Part shown: positions 21,301 to 27,300 of the stretch, piece by piece
Numbering within the stretch: the stretch's first letter is position 1
Layout: the number at the start of each line of letters is the position of its first letter
NCBI RefSeq assembly: GCF_001642725.1
Contig: NZ_LSUQ01000005.1
Span: 62,001 to 118,532, forward strand
Direction: 5' to 3'
DNA length: 56,532 bases
DNA from: Ferroacidibacillus organovorans
GTDB lineage: Bacteria; Bacillota; Bacilli; Alicyclobacillales; SLC66
Program-made: the position numbers

Positions 21301-24300
21301 GCGTGTTGTCGCAGCTTCACCGGATTACACTTGTCACAAACGCGCCGCAGTGTAAGCAGGGGGACCCTGATATGCGCATACCACCGGGTGTGGACGTGCG
21401 TGCGCATGGCGGTGTGACATTCCGCTCGGCGTTTGCAAACAAAGTGGCAGAGCGGTTGACGGGAAAACTCGACGATGAAAATCTGCTGTGGGCGCTGCGC
21501 GTCCCCCAGGTTAAAAAAGGCGATTTTGACGTACTCTACAGTCGCTCGCATCCAGGTGCAAGCCACATTCTGGCGGCCTCGCTCTGGAAGCGCACGCAGT
21601 TGCCGTGGATCGCTCAGTTCAGTGATCCGTGGTCGGCGAATCCCTACCATTCCCACCACACCATCATTCGGAAGCTGCGCGACCAGGAGCACGAACGATT
21701 TGTCATCGCGCATGCGGATCAACTCATCTTTCCGACCGTTGAAATCCAGGAAATCTACGAAAAGGCGTATCCTTTGCAAGCGATCAACGCCCGGTCGGTG
21801 GTCTTGCCCCATCACGTCTCAGAAGAGCTCTACAGCGTGAGAAATGCGAGCGTTCCGACGGAAGCCGGCAAGATGCTCCTGTCCTATTTTGGCGATTTCT
21901 ATGGCTTGCGCTCACCCGCGCCGCTGTTTGACGCGTTGCGGCACATTCACGCGCGAAACCCGGACAAGCTTGCGCGTGTCGAGATTGGCCTTTTTGGAAA
22001 CCTCGAGAAAAAGTTTGTCCCTCTTCTGGAGCAGGTGCCCGTCCGCATTCATCGCGGCCGCTATACGTATCTTGAGAGCCTGTCTGCAATGAGAAAGAGC
22101 CACGGTCTGTTGCTGATTGATGCGCCAAACGACACAGGAGTAAACCCGTTTCTCGCCTCAAAGTTGATCGACTACATTGGCGCTAAACGACCGATTCTTG
22201 GCGTCACCGAGGAACGCGGCACGGCGGCAAATTTCTTGCGTCAGGGTGGGCAGTATGTCGCGGCGCCCCGCGCGGTGGACAAAATTGCGTACGGGCTGGA
22301 ACAATTGATCGATTCAGCAAAGGTGACAGCAAGAATGGAGCGTCTGGCCGCAGCGTTTACATCAGAGAGGATCGTGGGTGAACTCGCGCAATGGTTGGAC
22401 AAGCAATAGACAGCGCGACGATGCGCCTGGCGAAAACCTCCAGGCGCATCGTTTTGTGCAGGATAGCATGCTCGATTCAGGAGATGCGTTGGGCTTTTGT
22501 GATGCGGTTTTTCCGGTAGAATTGCCGAGCGGACGCCCACAGATTGCCAGTCATCCAGATGCCGACGAGCAGCGTTGGCAAGCCGTAGATGAGTGTGTAA
22601 GGTTTGTCGCTTGTGATGCCGCTGTATACAAGTGATGTTCCGTAAACGCCGGCGATCAGTGACAAGAGCCAAATGAACCACAACCGAATACCCATGTTCA
22701 TATCAACTTCCCCCTCATTGGTTTACCCTCACGCATTCCCATTTCGAGACTGATAGCAGTTGGGCAATTCGCCCGCGAGCACGCCGCCCTTTTTCCCGCG
22801 AAACTCTTGACTGCACGAATCTCTGAGCGGGCAATTTGCACACGCATTTTGTTTTGACAGACCGCGATACCAGTCACGCCAGATCAACCGATGAACTGGG
22901 AGCACTTTCGGGAGCTTATTAAGCCCCGGAACCCAAGGTACAAGCACTAAGAGCGTAAAGAGAATGCCAATGGTGTAGGCGGCCATCTCATCGCCAGATG
23001 CGGACGTTGAGTACGGTGGAATCTGATACAAGAAGGTGTACGGTGTCAGCCACCATGGGCCGGGAAGCGCTGTCTCATCGTGATTGATGCCCCACTGATT
23101 GCCCTGCATATTGATCGTGTTGGCAATGTTGTGCAGGGTTGTACCTTGCAGGAACAACAGGTCGCCGCTTACGTCATAGCGGTAGACGCCGCCGTTCGTT
23201 TGGCGGTCGAGCGCACCTGAGAGAAGCCCAGATTTGGCGAGTTGCAACTCAGAATTCATCATGAGTGCCACGGGGCCATAATTGCCGAATGGCGTGACGA
23301 CGGCACCTTTAGAAACGGTCGCTTTATTGAGTGCATTGCTGTAATTTGTATCCCACTTTTGTTGCTGTGCGTAGGATGCGTTCTGATACTGTTGCAGCGC
23401 TTGGCTCAGTTTGTTGTTGGAAGAAGCTGTTGCCAGCATCTGCAGGGGTGCCATGATGTCGTTTTGTGCGGTATTCCAGTGATAGGGGGTCCCCCACCAG
23501 GTCTGAGGCGAGAAGCCCATGATCGATTGAATGGATTGCGCCTGACCGTGCCAACCGTGATTGTAAGGAGGGCCATAGCTTGCAATGGAACCTGTACCTG
23601 ACAGATCGCCGATGGCCGTCTGCTCGATGATTAAGGGAGAACCTAGTGCAATCTGTTGATTTGTGACGGCCGGGCGATACGGCGCGCCGAAGATGGCAGA
23701 AGCGCCAACAATCAGGACACCGATGATCCCGAGGCTGATGACACCCTCCTTGACCATGTCAAAGTCGCGTTGTGGAAAGCGCAAGGTGTCGCGTGTGAAT
23801 CGATCTTTTTTCATGCGTGCTCATCTCGCTTCTTTGCAGAAATCGAATAGGGTGGAACCACACCTTTGCTTCGCACGGCTAAGAGATGGATGCTGACGAG
23901 CCCGATAAGAATGGCAGGAAACACCGCGATGTGGAGGCCATAGACCTGCCCGTTGTTTAAGATGTTGAGAAATCCGTCGAGCCCTGCACCGTTAAACGCG
24001 TCCTTACTTTGAACCTGATTCCATTGTGAGAAAAAATCGCCCCTTGAGAGATACCCGGTGAACGCTTCAATAACCGATACGGCGAAGGAGAGCGCGCCAA
24101 CAACCCATGTGAGCGCGCGACCTTCGCGCCAGGATCCCATAAAGAACTGTCCAACGAGGTGCATCGTAGTAAAGAAGAAGAATGCCTGAACGCTCCAGTA
24201 GTGAACGCTTCGCAGAAACTCGCCGAGGCTTGAGGTCTGGTACCAGAGTGGACCTTTAGCCGACATGATGATTCCGCTTGCGATGCAAAAGACAAGACTG

Positions 24301-27300
24301 CTGAGTGTGAAGACGCCGAAGCTGTAGACGAGAGAGTTCACGTAGACGGGTTGTTCAGACGGCAACAAGTTATCCCAGGTAAGCTTTTCCGTTGCGGATT
24401 TGCGAAGTGATTTTGTCCAGTTCACGAACGATCACCGCGTTTCCCGTGTGGATACGTAAAGAGTGCGAAACTCGCAAACACGATGAGCCAGATGACACCG
24501 ACATAGATGTTCGGCCATGCATTCGATGTGTTAATCACCGTCAACCGCCTGCCTTTCTCTTATGGCTCTAGCATACGATCTGCGGCGAAAGGTGTTGAGA
24601 CCCGATCGAGTGTTCTTTTCCGCGAATTGGAGCTATTTGTGCATAGTCGGAATGGACCAGGGGAAACGACATTCTACCATTGACATGCTAGAATCTCAGG
24701 ACTAGCATGAGGGTACATCATCCTCCATCGCGAATGCCCCAAAAATTTCCCGTGCTTGATTGGCGAACGCATTCGTCTTTGGATGACATGGAGGTGAGTC
24801 AAGTCACGCTATCGATTATTGTTCCGACTTATAATGAGTTAGATAATCCAAAACGCTTAATAAATGAAATAATGCGTTATCTTCCTGATGGAACGTTTGA
24901 AGTGATCTTTGTCGATGACAGTTCAGATGAGCGATCGATCGAGTGGCTTAATGCTTTGTGTAAAACGTATCCTTTCGTGCGTCTGTTTCATCGCGTGCAG
25001 GAGCGCGGTCTCGGCAGTGCGGTCGTGCGCGGATTGGAACTTGCTTGCGGTGAATGGATCGCAGTGATGGATGCCGATCTGCAGCATCCGGCGAGTGTGC
25101 TCCCCGAGATGATGCGTGCGCTTTCAGCCGGATATGACGTGGTTATCCCGAGCCGCTTTGTCCCTGGAGGAAGTGACGGAGGGCTCTCGCTCCCGCGCAA
25201 GTGGATTTCTTTTACGGCGCGGTTGATCGGTCGTTTGGCGCTCAAGCGGCTGCGCAAGGTGTCCGATCCGACGAGTGGCTTTTTTATGATGAAGCGCGCC
25301 GTGATCGAAGGTGTTGCGCTGCGCCCCGTCGGGTGGAAGATTCTCATCGAAATTCTCGCGCGAGGGTCATACACGCGCATCCTAGAGATTCCGTACACGT
25401 TTGAGGCGCGCGCGTTTTGTGAGTCGAAAATGTCGCTCTACGAGCAGTGGAACTATCTCCGTCATCTCGGGCGCTTGATTCTTGACAGCCCTGAGGAAAG
25501 AAGAGTCTACCTCTTTGCGCTCGTTGGCGCATCAGGCGTTTTTGTCAATGAACTGTTCTATGACGTGCTGATTCATCTCCAAGTAGCGCTTTGGATAGCA
25601 GGCATGCTATCTGGCTTTATCGCGATGGTAACCAATTTTGTTCTCAATGATCGATTAACGTGGGTGGACGCGCGCGCGGGACAAGCGCATCGTCGTTTTC
25701 TCAAATATGTGATCACATCCTTGATTGGCATCGCGATCAGCACCGTAGTGCTCTCCTTTCTTGCGTATGGGGAGCGGGTGAACTCGCTCTATGCTAACGG
25801 GGCGGGAATCGCCGTCGCGACGGTCTGGAACTTCTACATCAACAATTTTTGGACGTGGAGAAAAAAGCATCGCGTTGTCGATATCGTCATTTCTTCGGTA
25901 GGCACGAGTACAGAGATTCGTTAGGGGGATAGGTCGTGCAACTGATTCTTTTATCTGGTGGTTCAGGAAAGCGTTTGTGGCCGCTCTCCAATGACGTCCG
26001 CTCAAAGCAATTTCTGCGCGTGTTAGAGGGGCATGATCAGAATCTCGTGTCGATGGTTGAACGCGTTTGGGGGCAACTCTCTGCGCTTAGGATGGACGGT
26101 TCGACCTATTTGTGCGCATCAAAGCTGCAGAAGGATCTGATCCACGCTCAACTGGGGGATGTCAGCGTCATCGTTGAACCGATGCGCATGGATACATTTC
26201 CGGCGATTGCCCTCGCGACAACCTATTTGGCGGATCAGGTTGAGGAAGATGACATCCTCGTCGTGGCGCCTGTGGATCAGTTTGTTGAAACGGGTTATTT
26301 TGAGCACTTAAAACGTCTTCCAGAGGTGCTCGTCGCATCTGGCTCGGAGATGGCCTTACTCGGTGTCAAGCCAACGCATCCATCGACACAATATGGGTAC
26401 ATATGTGTGGAACAGGAACGTGCGGCGGGATCATCCTATGCGCGTGTATCGTCGTTTCGCGAAAAACCGGAGCGAGCGCGTGCACTGGAGTGGATCGAAC
26501 AGGGTGCGCTGTGGAATTGCGGGGTATTCTGCTTTCGTAAATCGTATCTGATGCGCTTGCTTTCGGAGCGCGGTCTTCCGATTCACTATCGCGAGATGGT
26601 TGCGACGTTTCACGAAATGCCAAAGCGCAGCTTTGATTATGAAGTGGTCGAACAGACGGAAAAAATTGTCGTCGTACCGTACGATGGCGCATGGAAAGAT
26701 CTTGGGACATGGGAGACGCTTGCGCCGGAGATGCGCTCTTCCTTTCTTGGAATTGGTGTGGCGGACGATTGCGAAAACTCCCATGTTGTCAACGAGCTCT
26801 CCATTCCGATTGTCGCAAAAGGGTTAAAGAATTTGATGGTTGTGGCGAGTCCAGATGGGATCCTGGTGGCCGCGAAAGACCAGAGTGGTGGGATCAAAGA
26901 TCTCGTTGCCCCTTATTGCATCCGTCCCATGTTTGAGGAGCGGCGATGGGGATCTTACAAAGTGCTGGATTATCAGAAACTCCCTGACGGGAATGAGGTT
27001 TTAACAAAACAGGTCACGCTGCGCGCCGGCGCGAATATTAGTTACCATCGACACCATCTCCGAGAAGAGGTGTGGACGATGGTAGCTGGGGATGCTGTTC
27101 TAGCGCTGGACGGTAGAATGGTCAGCATTACGGCGGGGGATGTCTTTCGCGTTTGTCGCGGTCAGTGGCATGGCATCATGGCGAAGACGCAGGTTATTTT
27201 TGTCGAAGTGCAACGCGGGGAGACAATCACGGAAGAGGATTGTGACCGTCGCTTTATGGAGTGGGAGCATGTCATTGAACACTGTGAAGTTCTCGAACGG

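What a model noticed while it worked through the whole genome (the two positions that open the first line are those of the whole stretch)
22477..24538. Rieske-less, cytochrome-c-less cytochrome b6-type membrane complex with a novel-fold partner subunit (two paralogous ope [...]
Two paralogous four-gene operons (C5:84477-86538 and C10:600-2619) each encode a tiny membrane peptide, a 204-213-aa cytochrome b6-like protein with both bis-His haem sites, a 326-361-aa protein of no family (membrane helices at both ends around a ~230-aa outward helical domain) and a second small membrane protein; the genome has no Rieske subunit of a bc/b6c complex and no c-type cytochrome. I read this as a new kind of quinol-linked respiratory complex that replaces the bc1/b6c complex in cytochrome-c-free Firmicutes, passing electrons between menaquinol and an outside partner (cupredoxin or iron). 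New would be a respiratory complex type and a protein fold.
Evidence so far: Pfam Cytochrome_B/Cytochrom_B_N_2 on g00592 and g01055 only; partners g00591/g01054 have no Pfam, NCBIfam or Swiss-Prot match. Two His pairs in g00592, 14 and 15 positions apart in the second and fourth helices, the spacing recalled for b6. Partner family: 306 proteins at E<=1e-3 among 5.8 billion, none with Pfam, from Alicyclobacillaceae, Sulfobacillia, Thermaerobacter, Peptococcaceae; some sources label it 'cytochrome B6'. AlphaFold2 model from a 22-row alignment: mean pLDDT 67.6, residues 120-200 above 90; Foldseek vs PDB: 0 matches at E<=0.001, best E 2.9. Complex prediction b6-like + partner: ipSAE 0.82 vs best control 0.12 (mark reached by 116 of 157 solved complexes and 2 of 215 misma [...]
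(Added by a program. Inside this text positions count along the whole contig: contig position 62,001 is position 1 of the stretch shown here. "Call 12" and the like, gene names such as g00115 and contig names such as C1 are that model's own, and its searches are not shown. The text may have been shortened before it was handed on; [...] marks where a part breaks off. The agent that wrote the report below was given it as the finding of a first reader that could run no searches.)

Follow-up and report, generated by a model that had tools for sequence, protein, structure and literature searches.

The report
Rieske-less cytochrome b6/subunit-IV-like complex
A four-gene operon of an acid-loving Firmicute encodes a stripped-down relative of the respiratory cytochrome bc core, without the usual iron-sulfur and cytochrome c subunits and with a large new outward-facing domain; its electron partner is not known.

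Summary
On the minus strand, four coupled genes encode a 40-aa one-helix peptide, a 204-aa dihaem cytochrome b6-like protein, a 361-aa family-less protein and a 74-aa two-helix protein. A paralogous operon lies on contig C10. The genome has no bc-type Rieske protein and no c-type cytochrome.

The main correction concerns the partner, which is not wholly novel. Natural fusions (cyt b + partner), profile-profile matches and an AlphaFold model of a fusion (VIA-align Z about 20 to full-length cytochrome b, spanning helices A-F) indicate a diverged subunit IV. Its two membrane helices correspond to helices E and F, and a ~205-aa domain is inserted in the ef loop. Only that domain lacks a structural relative (best Z 4.0 against 48,161 PDB chains).

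The 'replaces bc1' reading is not supported. In 64 genomes of the order, 13 of the 30 carriers also have a canonical subunit IV. The family does track a membrane-anchored cupredoxin of CuA-oxidase operons (18 of 19 genomes).

Best reading: a menaquinol-linked, transmembrane dihaem module, a new variant of Rieske/cyt b complexes, possibly feeding cupredoxin/CuA oxidases. Two papers noted the lone cytochrome b in Sulfobacillus. The function is untested.

The parts
24422..24544 (-). 40-aa single-helix peptide (N-out, basic C-tail in). It carries the family motif N-A-W-P-N ... Y-P-H.
   Evidence: ORF; one hydrophobic helix. The motif occurs upstream of cyt b in 31 of 38 related loci with enough DNA; alignment A6. 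It is fused in front of cyt b + partner in P0129.
23811..24425 (-). 204-aa cytochrome b6-like protein with four helices. Haem ligands are His75/His89 (helix B) and His165/His180 (helix D). It lacks the CxGG Cys and has shortened ab and cd loops.
   Evidence: Pfam PF13631 3.9e-15 and PF00033 9.7e-9. Best NCBIfam matches are ExtP at 67 bits and cytochrome b6 at 55 bits, both far below cut-off. PDB phmmer hits cytochrome b chains down to 6e-10. Invariant columns; comparison with canonical QcrB/PetB.
22729..23814 (-). 361-aa partner, read as a subunit-IV-like protein (helices E and F) with an inserted outward domain and a cytoplasmic tail.
   Evidence: No Pfam, NCBIfam or PDB sequence match. 517 homologues. 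Fusions with cyt b. hhalign and its controls. Fusion model aligned to full-length cytochrome b.
23683..23745 (-). Partner helix 1 (residues 24-44), read as helix E. It is preceded by F-D-M-V-K-E, aligned to the 'hLLKE' segment of subunit IV.
   Evidence: Hydropathy. hhalign places partner 12-46 on the subunit IV pre-E segment plus helix E: score 26.2, above the best hit of each of 30 shuffles, max 24.0.
23065..23679 (-). Outward ~205-aa mostly helical domain (residues 46-250) inserted in the ef loop. No His, Cys or Met column is invariant or nearly invariant.
   Evidence: Alignment A1 invariant columns. AF2 of the domain alone: pLDDT 83.3, pTM 0.81. pdb_via_wide best Z 4.0, with 0 of 48,161 chains at Z>=5. 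Foldseek best E 2.1.
22924..23064 (-). P-G-P-W-W-L...Y-Q-I-P-P segment plus helix 2 (residues 251-297), read as the ef helix (Qo-motif region) and helix F, ending in V-P-W-V-P-G.
   Evidence: P251, G252, W255, Y263, Q264, P293 and P296 are invariant in 29 sequences. hhalign places partner 257-295 on the ef helix and helix F: score 33.0, P 4.3e-4; reversed control 17.4; 30 block shuffles max 24.0.
22732..22923 (-). Cytoplasmic tail (residues 298-361) with the conserved R-L-I-W-R-D-W-Y segment. In this orthologue group only, it also carries four Cys (325, 328, 334, 353).
   Evidence: The Cys pattern is shared by P0002, P0012, P0014, P0020 and P0025 and is absent from the C10 paralogue.
22477..22701 (-). 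74-aa two-helix hairpin protein (basic C-tail in) with motifs G-x-Y-G-T and G-I-W-x-T-G-N-x-x-A-S-A-R.
   Evidence: ORF; alignment A5 of 20 sequences. A like ORF follows the partner gene in about 30 of 40 related loci (union).
24671..24699 (-). Promoter-like site upstream of the first gene, in the 162-nt divergent intergenic region. A weak consensus match only.
   Evidence: 9 of 12 hexamer positions with a TG extension. The region has 5 such sites against 1.7 expected.

Best explanation
The operon encodes a four-subunit membrane complex that is a diverged, Rieske-less relative of the cytochrome bc/b6f core.

Architecture:
- The 204-aa protein is the b6-type half. It has four helices and two b haems stacked across the membrane.
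- The 361-aa protein is the subunit IV half. Its first helix takes the place of helix E. Its P-G-P-W-W-L...Y-Q-I segment takes the place of the ef helix that bears the Qo motif. Its second helix takes the place of helix F. A ~205-aa helical domain without any conserved metal ligand is inserted between helix E and the ef helix, on the outer face where the Rieske head would dock.
- The 40-aa and 74-aa proteins are accessory membrane subunits.

Mechanism (inferred):
- The complex moves electrons across the membrane through the two haems. One end is a menaquinone site on the cytoplasmic side. It keeps the Lys-Glu pair before helix E and the Arg five residues after the last haem His, as in b6-type proteins.
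- The other end is a remodelled outer site. The outer partner is encoded elsewhere.
- The best candidate partner is the membrane-anchored blue-copper protein that precedes the CuA-type haem-copper oxidase genes. The module would then link menaquinol to those oxidases in organisms that have no cytochrome c for them.

My odds: architecture about 0.8, a link to the quinone pool about 0.6, the cupredoxin/oxidase partner about 0.3.
For: Shown:
- Cyt b identity, with four His invariant in 32 of 32 family members.
- The two genes are one unit. They overlap by 4 nt. Cyt b precedes the partner gene in 35 of 41 related loci. Single-chain natural fusions exist (P0124 of 554 aa, P0129 of 639 aa, P0209, P0250), with Pfam Cytochrom_B_N_2 in the N-terminal part.
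- Subunit IV likeness. hhalign of the 29-row partner profile against 9 Firmicute subunit IV/QcrC sequences gives two collinear local matches, scoring 33.0 and 26.2. The reversed control scores 17.4 and 30 block shuffles reach at most 24.0.
- Structure. The AF2 model of fusion P0124 has pLDDT 79.5 and pTM 0.74. It aligns to full-length cytochrome b chains at Z 18-21, rmsd about 4 A, with 260-298 residues aligned (50 rows). The model range is about 5 to 520-539. For the mitochondrial chains the range is about 2 to 310-335. The b6-like part of P0124 has only about 205 residues, so more than 50 aligned residues must lie in the partner part.
- The genome lacks a bc-type Rieske protein and c-type cytochromes. 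It has three oxidase operons with a CuA-type subunit II, one of them split between contigs. Each is preceded by a membrane-anchored cupredoxin gene. A SoxE-domain lipoprotein gene precedes the cupredoxin in the two intact operons (C62, C23).
- In 64 genomes of the order, 18 of the 19 with that cupredoxin also have the partner family. In one genome the two operons lie about 3.5 kb apart.

Inferred: the quinone site, from aligned residues and recalled residue roles in bc1/b6f.
Against: - The subunit IV likeness is weak at sequence level. Pfam PF00032 finds nothing in the partner, and hhalign probabilities are only 34% and 7%.
- AlphaFold may place helices as in known cytochrome b structures by habit.
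- The partner has two helices, not the three of subunit IV.
- The outer-side loops that build the Qo pocket are shortened. The ab loop is about 15 residues shorter and the cd loop about 11 shorter. The P-W-(D/G)-Q motif is missing. The acidic residue of the Qo motif is absent. So a Qo-type quinol site may not exist.
- No conserved His, Cys or Met in the outward domain, so the complex itself offers no high-potential one-electron acceptor.
- 12 of 30 carrier genomes lack the cupredoxin found with this query.
- No redox partner gene is conserved next to the operon in 41 loci.
- Related genomes are not independent samples.
- There is no biochemical or expression evidence.
Confidence: 0.45

Rival explanations
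1. The module is the dihaem membrane anchor or quinol dehydrogenase of a redox loop unrelated to the cupredoxin oxidases. One version: quinol is oxidised at the outer face and electrons pass inward to a cytoplasmic acceptor, as in NarI-type anchors. Another: electrons pass outward to soluble ferric iron or another outside acceptor.
For: - Both haems and the residues on both membrane faces are conserved.
- 12 of 30 carrier genomes lack the cupredoxin.
- The family is found in Actinomycetes, Dormiibacterota and other MAGs.
- Named carriers include iron-oxidising and iron-reducing acidophiles: Sulfoacidibacillus, Alicyclobacillus tolerans, A. ferrooxydans and Fodinisporobacter ferrooxydans. A review table lists A. 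tolerans as an iron reducer (PMC8790237, passages).
- This orthologue group has a cytoplasmic four-Cys tail.
Against: - No cytoplasmic or extracellular redox protein is conserved beside the operon in 41 loci.
- The Cys tail is confined to one subgroup.
- Carriers also include species whose names do not suggest iron metabolism (A. hesperidum, A. mengziensis).
- No metal ligand is conserved in the outward domain.
Confidence: 0.25
2. The partner is not homologous to subunit IV. It is an unrelated two-helix protein of new fold that binds a stand-alone b6-like cytochrome, and the likeness to helices E and F is chance or modelling habit. On this reading the complex is a new type.
For: - No Pfam, NCBIfam or PDB sequence match for the partner.
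- hhalign probabilities are low.
- The outward domain, over half of the protein, has no structural relative.
- There are only two helices, and no acidic Qo residue.
Against: - Two separate profile matches fall in the right order and at the right topology, and both score above all 30 shuffled controls.
- The gene order and the fusion order (b6-like part, then partner) are those of split and fused cytochrome b.
- Motif pairs sit at like spacing. Tryptophan to the P-(W/F) motif after the helix is 40 residues in the partner against 39 in a QcrC. I counted this by hand from sequences.
- The structural alignment runs through helix F.
Confidence: 0.15
3. The module is not a respiratory enzyme. It is a haem-based redox or quinone-pool sensor, or a scaffold, working with the adjacent two-component systems.
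For: - A LuxR-type response regulator gene lies next to the operon in 12 of 41 loci. Histidine-kinase-like genes accompany it in several of them (read by eye from representative sequences, not scanned against Pfam).
- Genomes carry 1-5 matches to the partner profile.
- The complex has no high-potential acceptor of its own.
Against: - The window's own operon and its paralogue have no such neighbours; the flanks are glycosyltransferases, tRNA genes and an SLH protein.
- Adjacent regulators more simply control the operon's expression.
- Strict conservation of both haem pairs and of a transmembrane arrangement fits electron transfer.
Confidence: 0.1

Closest known systems
Menaquinol:cytochrome c reductase of Firmicutes (QcrABC) and cytochrome b6f: split cytochrome b6 plus subunit IV cores of Rieske/cyt b complexes
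   Same: - A split core encoded by adjacent genes in the order b6 then subunit IV.
- Four-helix b6-type protein with His pairs 14 and 15 apart.
- The W-R-x-G-R and R-x-K-G-V-x-P segments are like those of canonical QcrB/PetB.
- The partner's helices and flanking motifs align with helices E and F.
   Different: - No Rieske protein and no cytochrome c.
- No CxGG Cys for the third haem.
- The ab and cd loops are shortened and the P-W-(D/G)-Q motif is lost.
- A ~205-aa domain is inserted in the ef loop.
- Helix G is absent from the partner.
- There are two extra small subunits.
- Scores lie far below the curated cut-offs: 55 bits against 325 for cytochrome b6.
SoxM and SoxABCD terminal oxidase supercomplexes of Sulfolobales (cytochrome b homologues SoxG/SoxC with sulfocyanin SoxE). 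Composition recalled; named in PMC4122944 (passages).
   Same: - A cytochrome-c-free chain in an acidophile.
- A cytochrome b homologue together with CuA-type oxidases and blue-copper or SoxE-domain proteins. Pfam SoxE scores 5.6e-15 on the lipoprotein of the oxidase operon.
- SoxC is a cytochrome b homologue in a complex without a Rieske protein (recalled).
   Different: - SoxG works with the Rieske protein SoxF.
- SoxC is a long multi-helix protein encoded inside the oxidase operon.
- Here the b module is a separate operon and scores only 21 bits against a 740-bit cut-off for SoxC.
- The SoxE-domain lipoprotein here lacks a Cys copper ligand.
Rieske-less cytochrome b proteins of Geobacter inner-membrane 'Cbc'/Ext clusters, such as ExtP (NCBIfam NF040969)
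   Same: ExtP is the best curated match of the 204-aa protein (E 1.6e-18). These are b6-like cytochromes that work without a Rieske protein (recalled).
   Different: - The score is 67 bits against a cut-off of 290, so this is not a member.
- Those clusters encode multihaem c-type cytochromes and Fe-S proteins (recalled).
- This genome has no c-type cytochrome.
- No gene like the 361-aa partner is known to me there (not tested).
Dihaem cytochrome b membrane anchors of redox loops (NarI, FdnI; recalled). A functional analogue only.
   Same: Two b haems stacked across the membrane link a quinone site to a partner on one face.
   Different: The folds and families are unrelated, and those anchors are encoded beside their catalytic subunits. 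Here no catalytic subunit is encoded nearby.

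Membership tests
Rieske/cytochrome b complexes (bc1, b6f, bcc) | Cytochrome b with four His ligands for two b haems in helices B and D | tested here: met
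   His75/89 and His165/180, invariant in 32 of 32 family members and aligned with the His of canonical QcrB/PetB.
Rieske/cytochrome b complexes (bc1, b6f, bcc) | Rieske [2Fe-2S] subunit | tested here: not met
   The genome's 4 Rieske-domain ORFs are oxygenase-type, a DAO fusion, or small and soluble. No gene cluster recurrent beside the operon in the 41 related loci is Rieske-like (representative sequences read by eye; neighbours were not scanned against Pfam). Genome completeness is 96.8%.
Rieske/cytochrome b complexes (bc1, b6f, bcc) | c-type cytochrome (c1, f or dihaem c) as acceptor | tested here: not met
   No PF00034 or PF13442 hit. No credible CXXCH protein among 3103 ORFs.
Rieske/cytochrome b complexes (bc1, b6f, bcc) | Bifurcated quinol oxidation (Q cycle) | not testable with these tools
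   Needs enzymology.
Subunit IV / C-terminal half of cytochrome b (Pfam PF00032) | Match to the family profile | tested here: not met
   hmmscan of the partner at E<=1 finds nothing. The genome search with PF00032 finds no hit in either operon.
Subunit IV / C-terminal half of cytochrome b (Pfam PF00032) | Helices E and F with the ef helix/Qo motif between them, packed against helices A-D | tested here: inconclusive
   hhalign gives two collinear matches above all controls but at low probability. The predicted fusion model aligns to full-length cytochrome b through helix F at Z about 20. This is a prediction, not a solved structure. The Qo motif is P/A/Q-x-W-L without an acidic residue.
Subunit IV / C-terminal half of cytochrome b (Pfam PF00032) | Third helix (G) | tested here: not met
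   The partner has only two hydrophobic helices. The separate 74-aa hairpin shows no profile likeness to helix G.
Cytochrome b6 proper (PetB/QcrB; NCBIfam PRK03735) | Curated score cut-off, and the CxGG motif that binds the third haem | tested here: not met
   55.1 bits against a cut-off of 325. Ser, Leu or Met stands in place of the Cys.
ExtP (NF040969) and SoxC (NF041076) | Curated score cut-off | tested here: not met
   67.3 bits against 290, and 21 bits against 740.

The most novel reading that the evidence does not exclude
The complex runs a true Q cycle in which a membrane-anchored blue-copper protein takes the place of the Rieske protein. A single-helix-anchored cupredoxin head would dock on the new ef-loop domain, take the first electron of menaquinol at the outer site, and carry it to the CuA centre of the neighbouring oxidase. 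The second electron would cross the two b haems to the inner quinone site. That would be a copper-based complex III analogue in cytochrome-c-free Gram-positive acidophiles.
Probability: 0.15. Interest if true: 0.9.

Novelty: new variant of a known kind. Interest (0 to 1): 0.62.

Why it matters
Rieske/cytochrome b complexes are defined by the pairing of cytochrome b with a Rieske protein. This family keeps the whole b core (the b6 part plus an E-F part), drops the Rieske protein, and adds a large domain at the place where the Rieske head works. It occurs widely, often in two or more copies. That makes it a natural experiment on what the b core can do alone.

It also bears on an open point in acidophile bioenergetics. 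Genome papers on Sulfobacillus report only 'a cytochrome b subunit (2 copies)' and no bc complex, and leave the link between the quinone pool and the copper proteins and oxidases unexplained (PMC4378227 and PMC6803676, passages). Recognising the neighbouring 'hypothetical protein' as the missing half of cytochrome b gives a defined four-protein target for purification, structure determination and knock-outs.

Tried and rejected
- Global hhalign was meaningless because of the 205-residue insertion. Local mode was used instead.
- Complex prediction of all four operon proteins, with the 74-aa protein scored: 0.00 in two runs, so no verdict. Its binding remains unsupported by modelling.
- Search for longer proteins containing the 74-aa protein: none found among 8000 candidates. 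This is weak evidence.
- hhalign of the 74-aa family against subunit IV found nothing.
- hhalign of the 40-aa peptide against subunit IV gave a weak match (score 17.3) of its A-W-P-N segment to the W-P-N segment before helix E. I rejected it. The score is below the shuffle maximum of 24.0 seen in the partner-versus-subunit-IV run. The peptide's basic C-tail and the P0129 fusion also place its N-terminus outside, the opposite topology.
- ResB (PF05140) as a marker of cytochrome c maturation: 0 of 64 genomes of the order, although 28 of 64 have QcrC-like genes. The marker is uninformative here, so I do not use its absence in G000. The one PF01578 hit lies between ORFs I read as hemA- and hemC-like (by eye), so I take it as HemX-type.
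- The ESM Atlas gave only unnamed Actinomycetota clusters at 0.81-0.82, below a trustworthy score.
- The first related-loci run failed because alignment A1 was too diverse. It was repeated with the closer alignment A3.
- Literature searches for 'Rieske-less', 'orphan cytochrome b' and the like found 6 papers, none relevant. A search on cytochrome bc complex evolution found reviews (PMC5600118 and PMC4122944, passages only) that do not mention Alicyclobacillus or Sulfobacillus. I did not see their supplements, which list the sequences they analysed.
- Earlier findings of this scan were not open to the session.

Full report
**What is in the window**

Four ORFs lie head to tail on the minus strand at 22477-24544:
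- 24422-24544, 40 aa;
- 23811-24425, 204 aa;
- 22729-23814, 361 aa;
- 22477-22701, 74 aa.

The first three overlap by 4 nt each, and 27 nt separate the last two, so they look translationally coupled. The flanks run the other way and belong to sugar and sulfate metabolism. On one side is a glycosyltransferase-4-like gene. On the other is a GT2 + GtrA gene across a 162-nt divergent region. Further out lie an APS kinase, a DHH protein and a sulfotransferase. The context therefore says nothing about function.

Hydropathy gives one helix for the 40-aa peptide. The 204-aa protein shows three clear helices. A fourth (helix B) falls below my threshold here but is seen in the paralogue. The 361-aa protein has two helices (24-44 and 277-297), and the 74-aa protein has a two-helix hairpin, the second helix read by eye.

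**The cytochrome b**

- Pfam gives Cytochrom_B_N_2 (3.9e-15) and Cytochrome_B (9.7e-9).
- The best NCBIfam models are ExtP (67 bits, cut-off 290) and cytochrome b6 (55 bits, cut-off 325), so it belongs to no curated family.
- phmmer against PDB sequences finds 34 cytochrome b or b6 chains, the best at 6e-10.
- His75/His89 and His165/His180 are 14 and 15 apart and invariant in 32 of 32 family members.

I aligned it with 15 canonical QcrB/PetB proteins taken from Firmicute genomes. The haem ligands, the W-R-x-G-R segment after helix B and the R-x-K-G-V-x-P end are shared. Four things differ:
- The Cys of the CxGG motif is replaced by Ser, Leu or Met. From memory, that Cys binds the third haem in b6-type proteins.
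- The ab loop is about 15 residues shorter.
- The cd loop is about 11 residues shorter.
- The P-W-(D/G)-Q motif after helix C is missing. A family-specific, invariant Q-W...Q-x-K-(D)-A motif stands nearby.

The outer face is therefore rebuilt, while the inner face is b6-like. It includes Arg185 five residues after the last haem His, where I recall an Arg in b6 and a quinone-site His in bc1.

**The partner**

It has no Pfam, NCBIfam or PDB sequence match. It has 517 homologues at E<=1e-3 among 5047 candidates. In the 50%-identity library it has 573 representatives, 234 at <=1e-10 and 41 at <=1e-30.

Several representatives are longer. Of the 12 I scanned, 9 carry Cytochrom_B_N_2 in front of the partner part. 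P0124 (554 aa) is a clean b6-like + partner fusion. P0129 (639 aa) also has the small peptide fused in front. A few others look frameshifted, and I do not count them.

The order 'b6-like part, then partner' is the order of split and fused cytochrome b.

**Sequence test for subunit IV**

I took 9 subunit IV, QcrC or fused cytochrome b C-terminal parts from PF00032 hits in 121 genomes of the phylum; 14 of the 121 had a hit, and 6 of the 15 loci were dropped because my ORF picker chose a wrong frame or they duplicated another locus. I compared them with the 29-row partner profile using hhalign.

Local mode gives two collinear matches:
- Partner 257-295 on the ef helix and helix F: score 33.0, P 4.3e-4, probability 34%.
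- Partner 12-46 on the segment before helix E plus helix E: score 26.2, P 5e-3 (2.6e-4 when the N-terminal part is searched alone).

Controls: the reversed target scores 17.4. In 30 block-shuffled targets the best hit never exceeds 24.0, so 0 of 30 reach either real score.

Three motif pairs can be seen by eye:
- F-D-(L/M)-(I/V)-K-E against (N/D)-x-L-L-K-E;
- W-W-L-x-P-Y-x-F-L-Y-Q-I against W-Y-F-L-F-L-Y-Q-L;
- P-(W/F)-(V/I)-P-G after the helix against P-(F/W)-L-D.

From memory, the Lys-Asp/Glu pair before helix E belongs to the inner quinone site of bc1.

**Structure test**

The natural fusion P0124 was folded with a 72-row alignment of fusions, partners and cytochromes b. The model has mean pLDDT 79.5 and pTM 0.74.

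- Foldseek's best PDB matches are full-length cytochrome b chains (E 2e-6). b6 chains cover only about 216 columns.
- VIA-align gives Z 18-21 over the 50 rows, rmsd about 4 A, with 260-298 residues aligned. The model range is about 5 to 520-539. For the mitochondrial chains the range is about 2 to 310-335. From memory, that ends after helix F.
- The b6-like part of P0124 is only about 205 residues. More than 50 aligned residues must therefore lie in the partner part.

The caveat is that this is a predicted model, and AlphaFold knows cytochrome b.

The outward domain of the window's own protein (residues 46-250) was folded alone with 57 rows. It reaches pLDDT 83.3 and pTM 0.81 and has no relative:
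- against 48,161 representative chains the best Z is 4.0, and 0 chains reach Z 5;
- Foldseek's best E is 2.1.

No His, Cys or Met column is invariant or nearly invariant in that domain. I therefore see no cofactor site in it.

**The small subunits**

- The upstream peptide motif (N-A/V/G-W-P-N ... Y-P) is present in 31 of 38 related loci with enough upstream DNA.
- A two-helix ORF like the 74-aa protein follows the partner gene in about 30 of 40 loci (union). It seems absent from one paralogue group.
- The peptide's membership is backed by the P0129 fusion.
- The 74-aa protein's membership rests on synteny alone.

**Genome background**

The assembly has 98 contigs and is 96.8% complete. It holds exactly two cytochrome b genes, one in each operon. 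It has no canonical subunit IV, no bc-type Rieske protein and no c-type cytochrome.

It has seven COX1 matches:
- Three operons have a subunit II without the CuA motif (Qox type).
- Two have a CuA motif, and a third has a variant of it. The third is split between contigs C27 and C39 beside transposase-like genes (read by eye).
- Each CuA operon is preceded by a 211-232-aa membrane-anchored protein with a Cys-His-Met blue-copper pattern (read by eye; no Pfam match). In the two intact operons (C62, C23) a lipoprotein gene precedes it. The C62 lipoprotein has a SoxE (sulfocyanin) domain at 5.6e-15, and both lack a Cys copper ligand.

**Distribution**

Named carriers include Sulfoacidibacillus, Fodinisporobacter ferrooxydans, and Alicyclobacillus tolerans, ferrooxydans, hesperidum and mengziensis (three copies). 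Carriers also include many MAGs labelled Bacillota, and MAGs labelled Thermaerobacter, Peptococcaceae, Actinomycetes, Acidimicrobiales, Dormiibacterota, Bacteroidota, Spirochaetia and Patescibacteria. Some of those labels may be binning errors.

In the 64 genomes of the window's order:
- 30 have the partner family and 28 have a canonical subunit IV.
- Both occur in 13, the family alone in 17, the canonical gene alone in 15, and neither in 19.
- Carriage is thus the same with a canonical complex (13 of 28) as without one (17 of 36). The family is an addition, not a replacement.

The membrane-anchored cupredoxin occurs in 19 of the 64 genomes, and 18 of those carry the family. Twelve carriers lack it. 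By genus, all 11 genera with the cupredoxin have the family, against 6 of the 15 genera without it. Related genomes are not independent, so this is a lead, not a test. In genome G174 the two operons are about 3.5 kb apart, with a LuxR-type regulator between them.

Among the 41 related loci, the only recurrent neighbours are that regulator (12 loci), kinase-like genes, a sulfide:quinone-reductase-like gene (5 loci), a radical-SAM gene (6 loci) and a VIT1-like gene (4 loci). I named these by eye from representative sequences. No redox partner is conserved.

**How it most likely works**

Shown: a dihaem b6-like protein and a subunit-IV-like protein form one unit, without Rieske or c-type partners.

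Inferred: the two haems carry electrons across the membrane between an inner quinone site, whose residues are kept, and a rebuilt outer site capped by the new domain.

The organism is expected to use menaquinone (recalled for Alicyclobacillus). It has CuA oxidases that need a one-electron donor and has no cytochrome c. The simplest role is therefore a menaquinol-to-cupredoxin link, analogous to the cytochrome b part of the archaeal SoxM supercomplex (recalled).

The weak point is the lack of any high-potential centre in the complex itself. Either the cupredoxin docks directly at the outer site (the bold reading), or the module serves another partner (the rivals).

**What is in print**

- Justice et al. 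2014 (PMC4378227, passages) state that Sulfobacillus genomes have a dihaem cytochrome b homologous to petB, in operons without cytochrome c or iron-sulfur protein, that 'may perform some other function'.
- Panyushkina et al. 2019 (PMC6803676, passages) report 'only a cytochrome b subunit of the bc1 complex (2 copies)'.
- I did not verify that those Sulfobacillus genes belong to this family.
- Kao and Hunte 2014 (PMC4122944, passages) list Qo-motif variants (PEWY, PDWY, APWY, PPWF, GPWF, GPWY). They do not list this one.
- In my three literature searches I found no paper that treats the neighbouring protein as the second half of cytochrome b.

**Verdict**

This is a real, conserved feature. It is a new variant of a known kind of complex. 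The gene arrangement was already noticed in passing by others, but the complex has not been analysed and its function is unknown.

Noticed in passing
G000 C62:1572-6150 (L075), C23:4022-8650 (L076), C27:1037-3296 with C39:20260-22022: Three operons for CuA-type haem-copper oxidases in a genome without c-type cytochromes. Each is preceded by a membrane-anchored blue-copper-like protein with no Pfam match. In the C62 and C23 operons a Cys-less lipoprotein gene precedes it, and the C62 one has a SoxE (sulfocyanin) domain. The third operon's subunit I is split between two contigs that end beside transposase-like genes.
   Followed up: partly
window 22732-22830 (partner residues 325-353): Four Cys (C-x2-C-x5-C-x18-C) lie in the cytoplasmic tail of the partner. 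They are shared only by the closest orthologues (P0002, P0012, P0014, P0020, P0025) and are absent from the paralogue. They could form a zinc or Fe-S site.
   Followed up: no
L018 (G000 C10) 4-539: An array of six tRNA genes (Tyr, Gln, Thr, Met, Phe, Cys) lies at the contig start, directly beside the paralogous operon (600-2619). An SLH-domain protein with Ser/Thr-rich repeats follows at 2897-4012.
   Followed up: partly
genomes G165, G164, G172, G153, G156 of the same order: A third, more distant class of partner-like ORFs of 311-334 aa. They match only positions 110-304 of the 319-position family profile (model A1), at E about 1e-30. I did not examine them further and saw none in the window's genome.
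   Followed up: no
window 18561-22409 and 24707-27303: The operon sits inside a block of sulfation and glycosylation genes on the opposite strand: APS kinase, DHH/DHHA1 protein, sulfotransferase, GT4-like, GT2 + GtrA, and mannose-1-phosphate guanylyltransferase/isomerase. This suggests a sulfated cell-envelope polysaccharide locus.
   Followed up: partly
order-wide search: ResB (PF05140) was found in 0 of 64 genomes of the order, although 28 of them encode QcrC-like subunit IV-cytochrome c fusions. Either cytochrome c maturation there uses a diverged or different system, or the search misses it.
   Followed up: no
L077 (G174 C26) 1121-7688 and 12 of 41 related loci: A LuxR-type response regulator lies next to some copies of the operon, often with a histidine-kinase-like gene. 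This suggests regulated expression of at least one paralogue.
   Followed up: no
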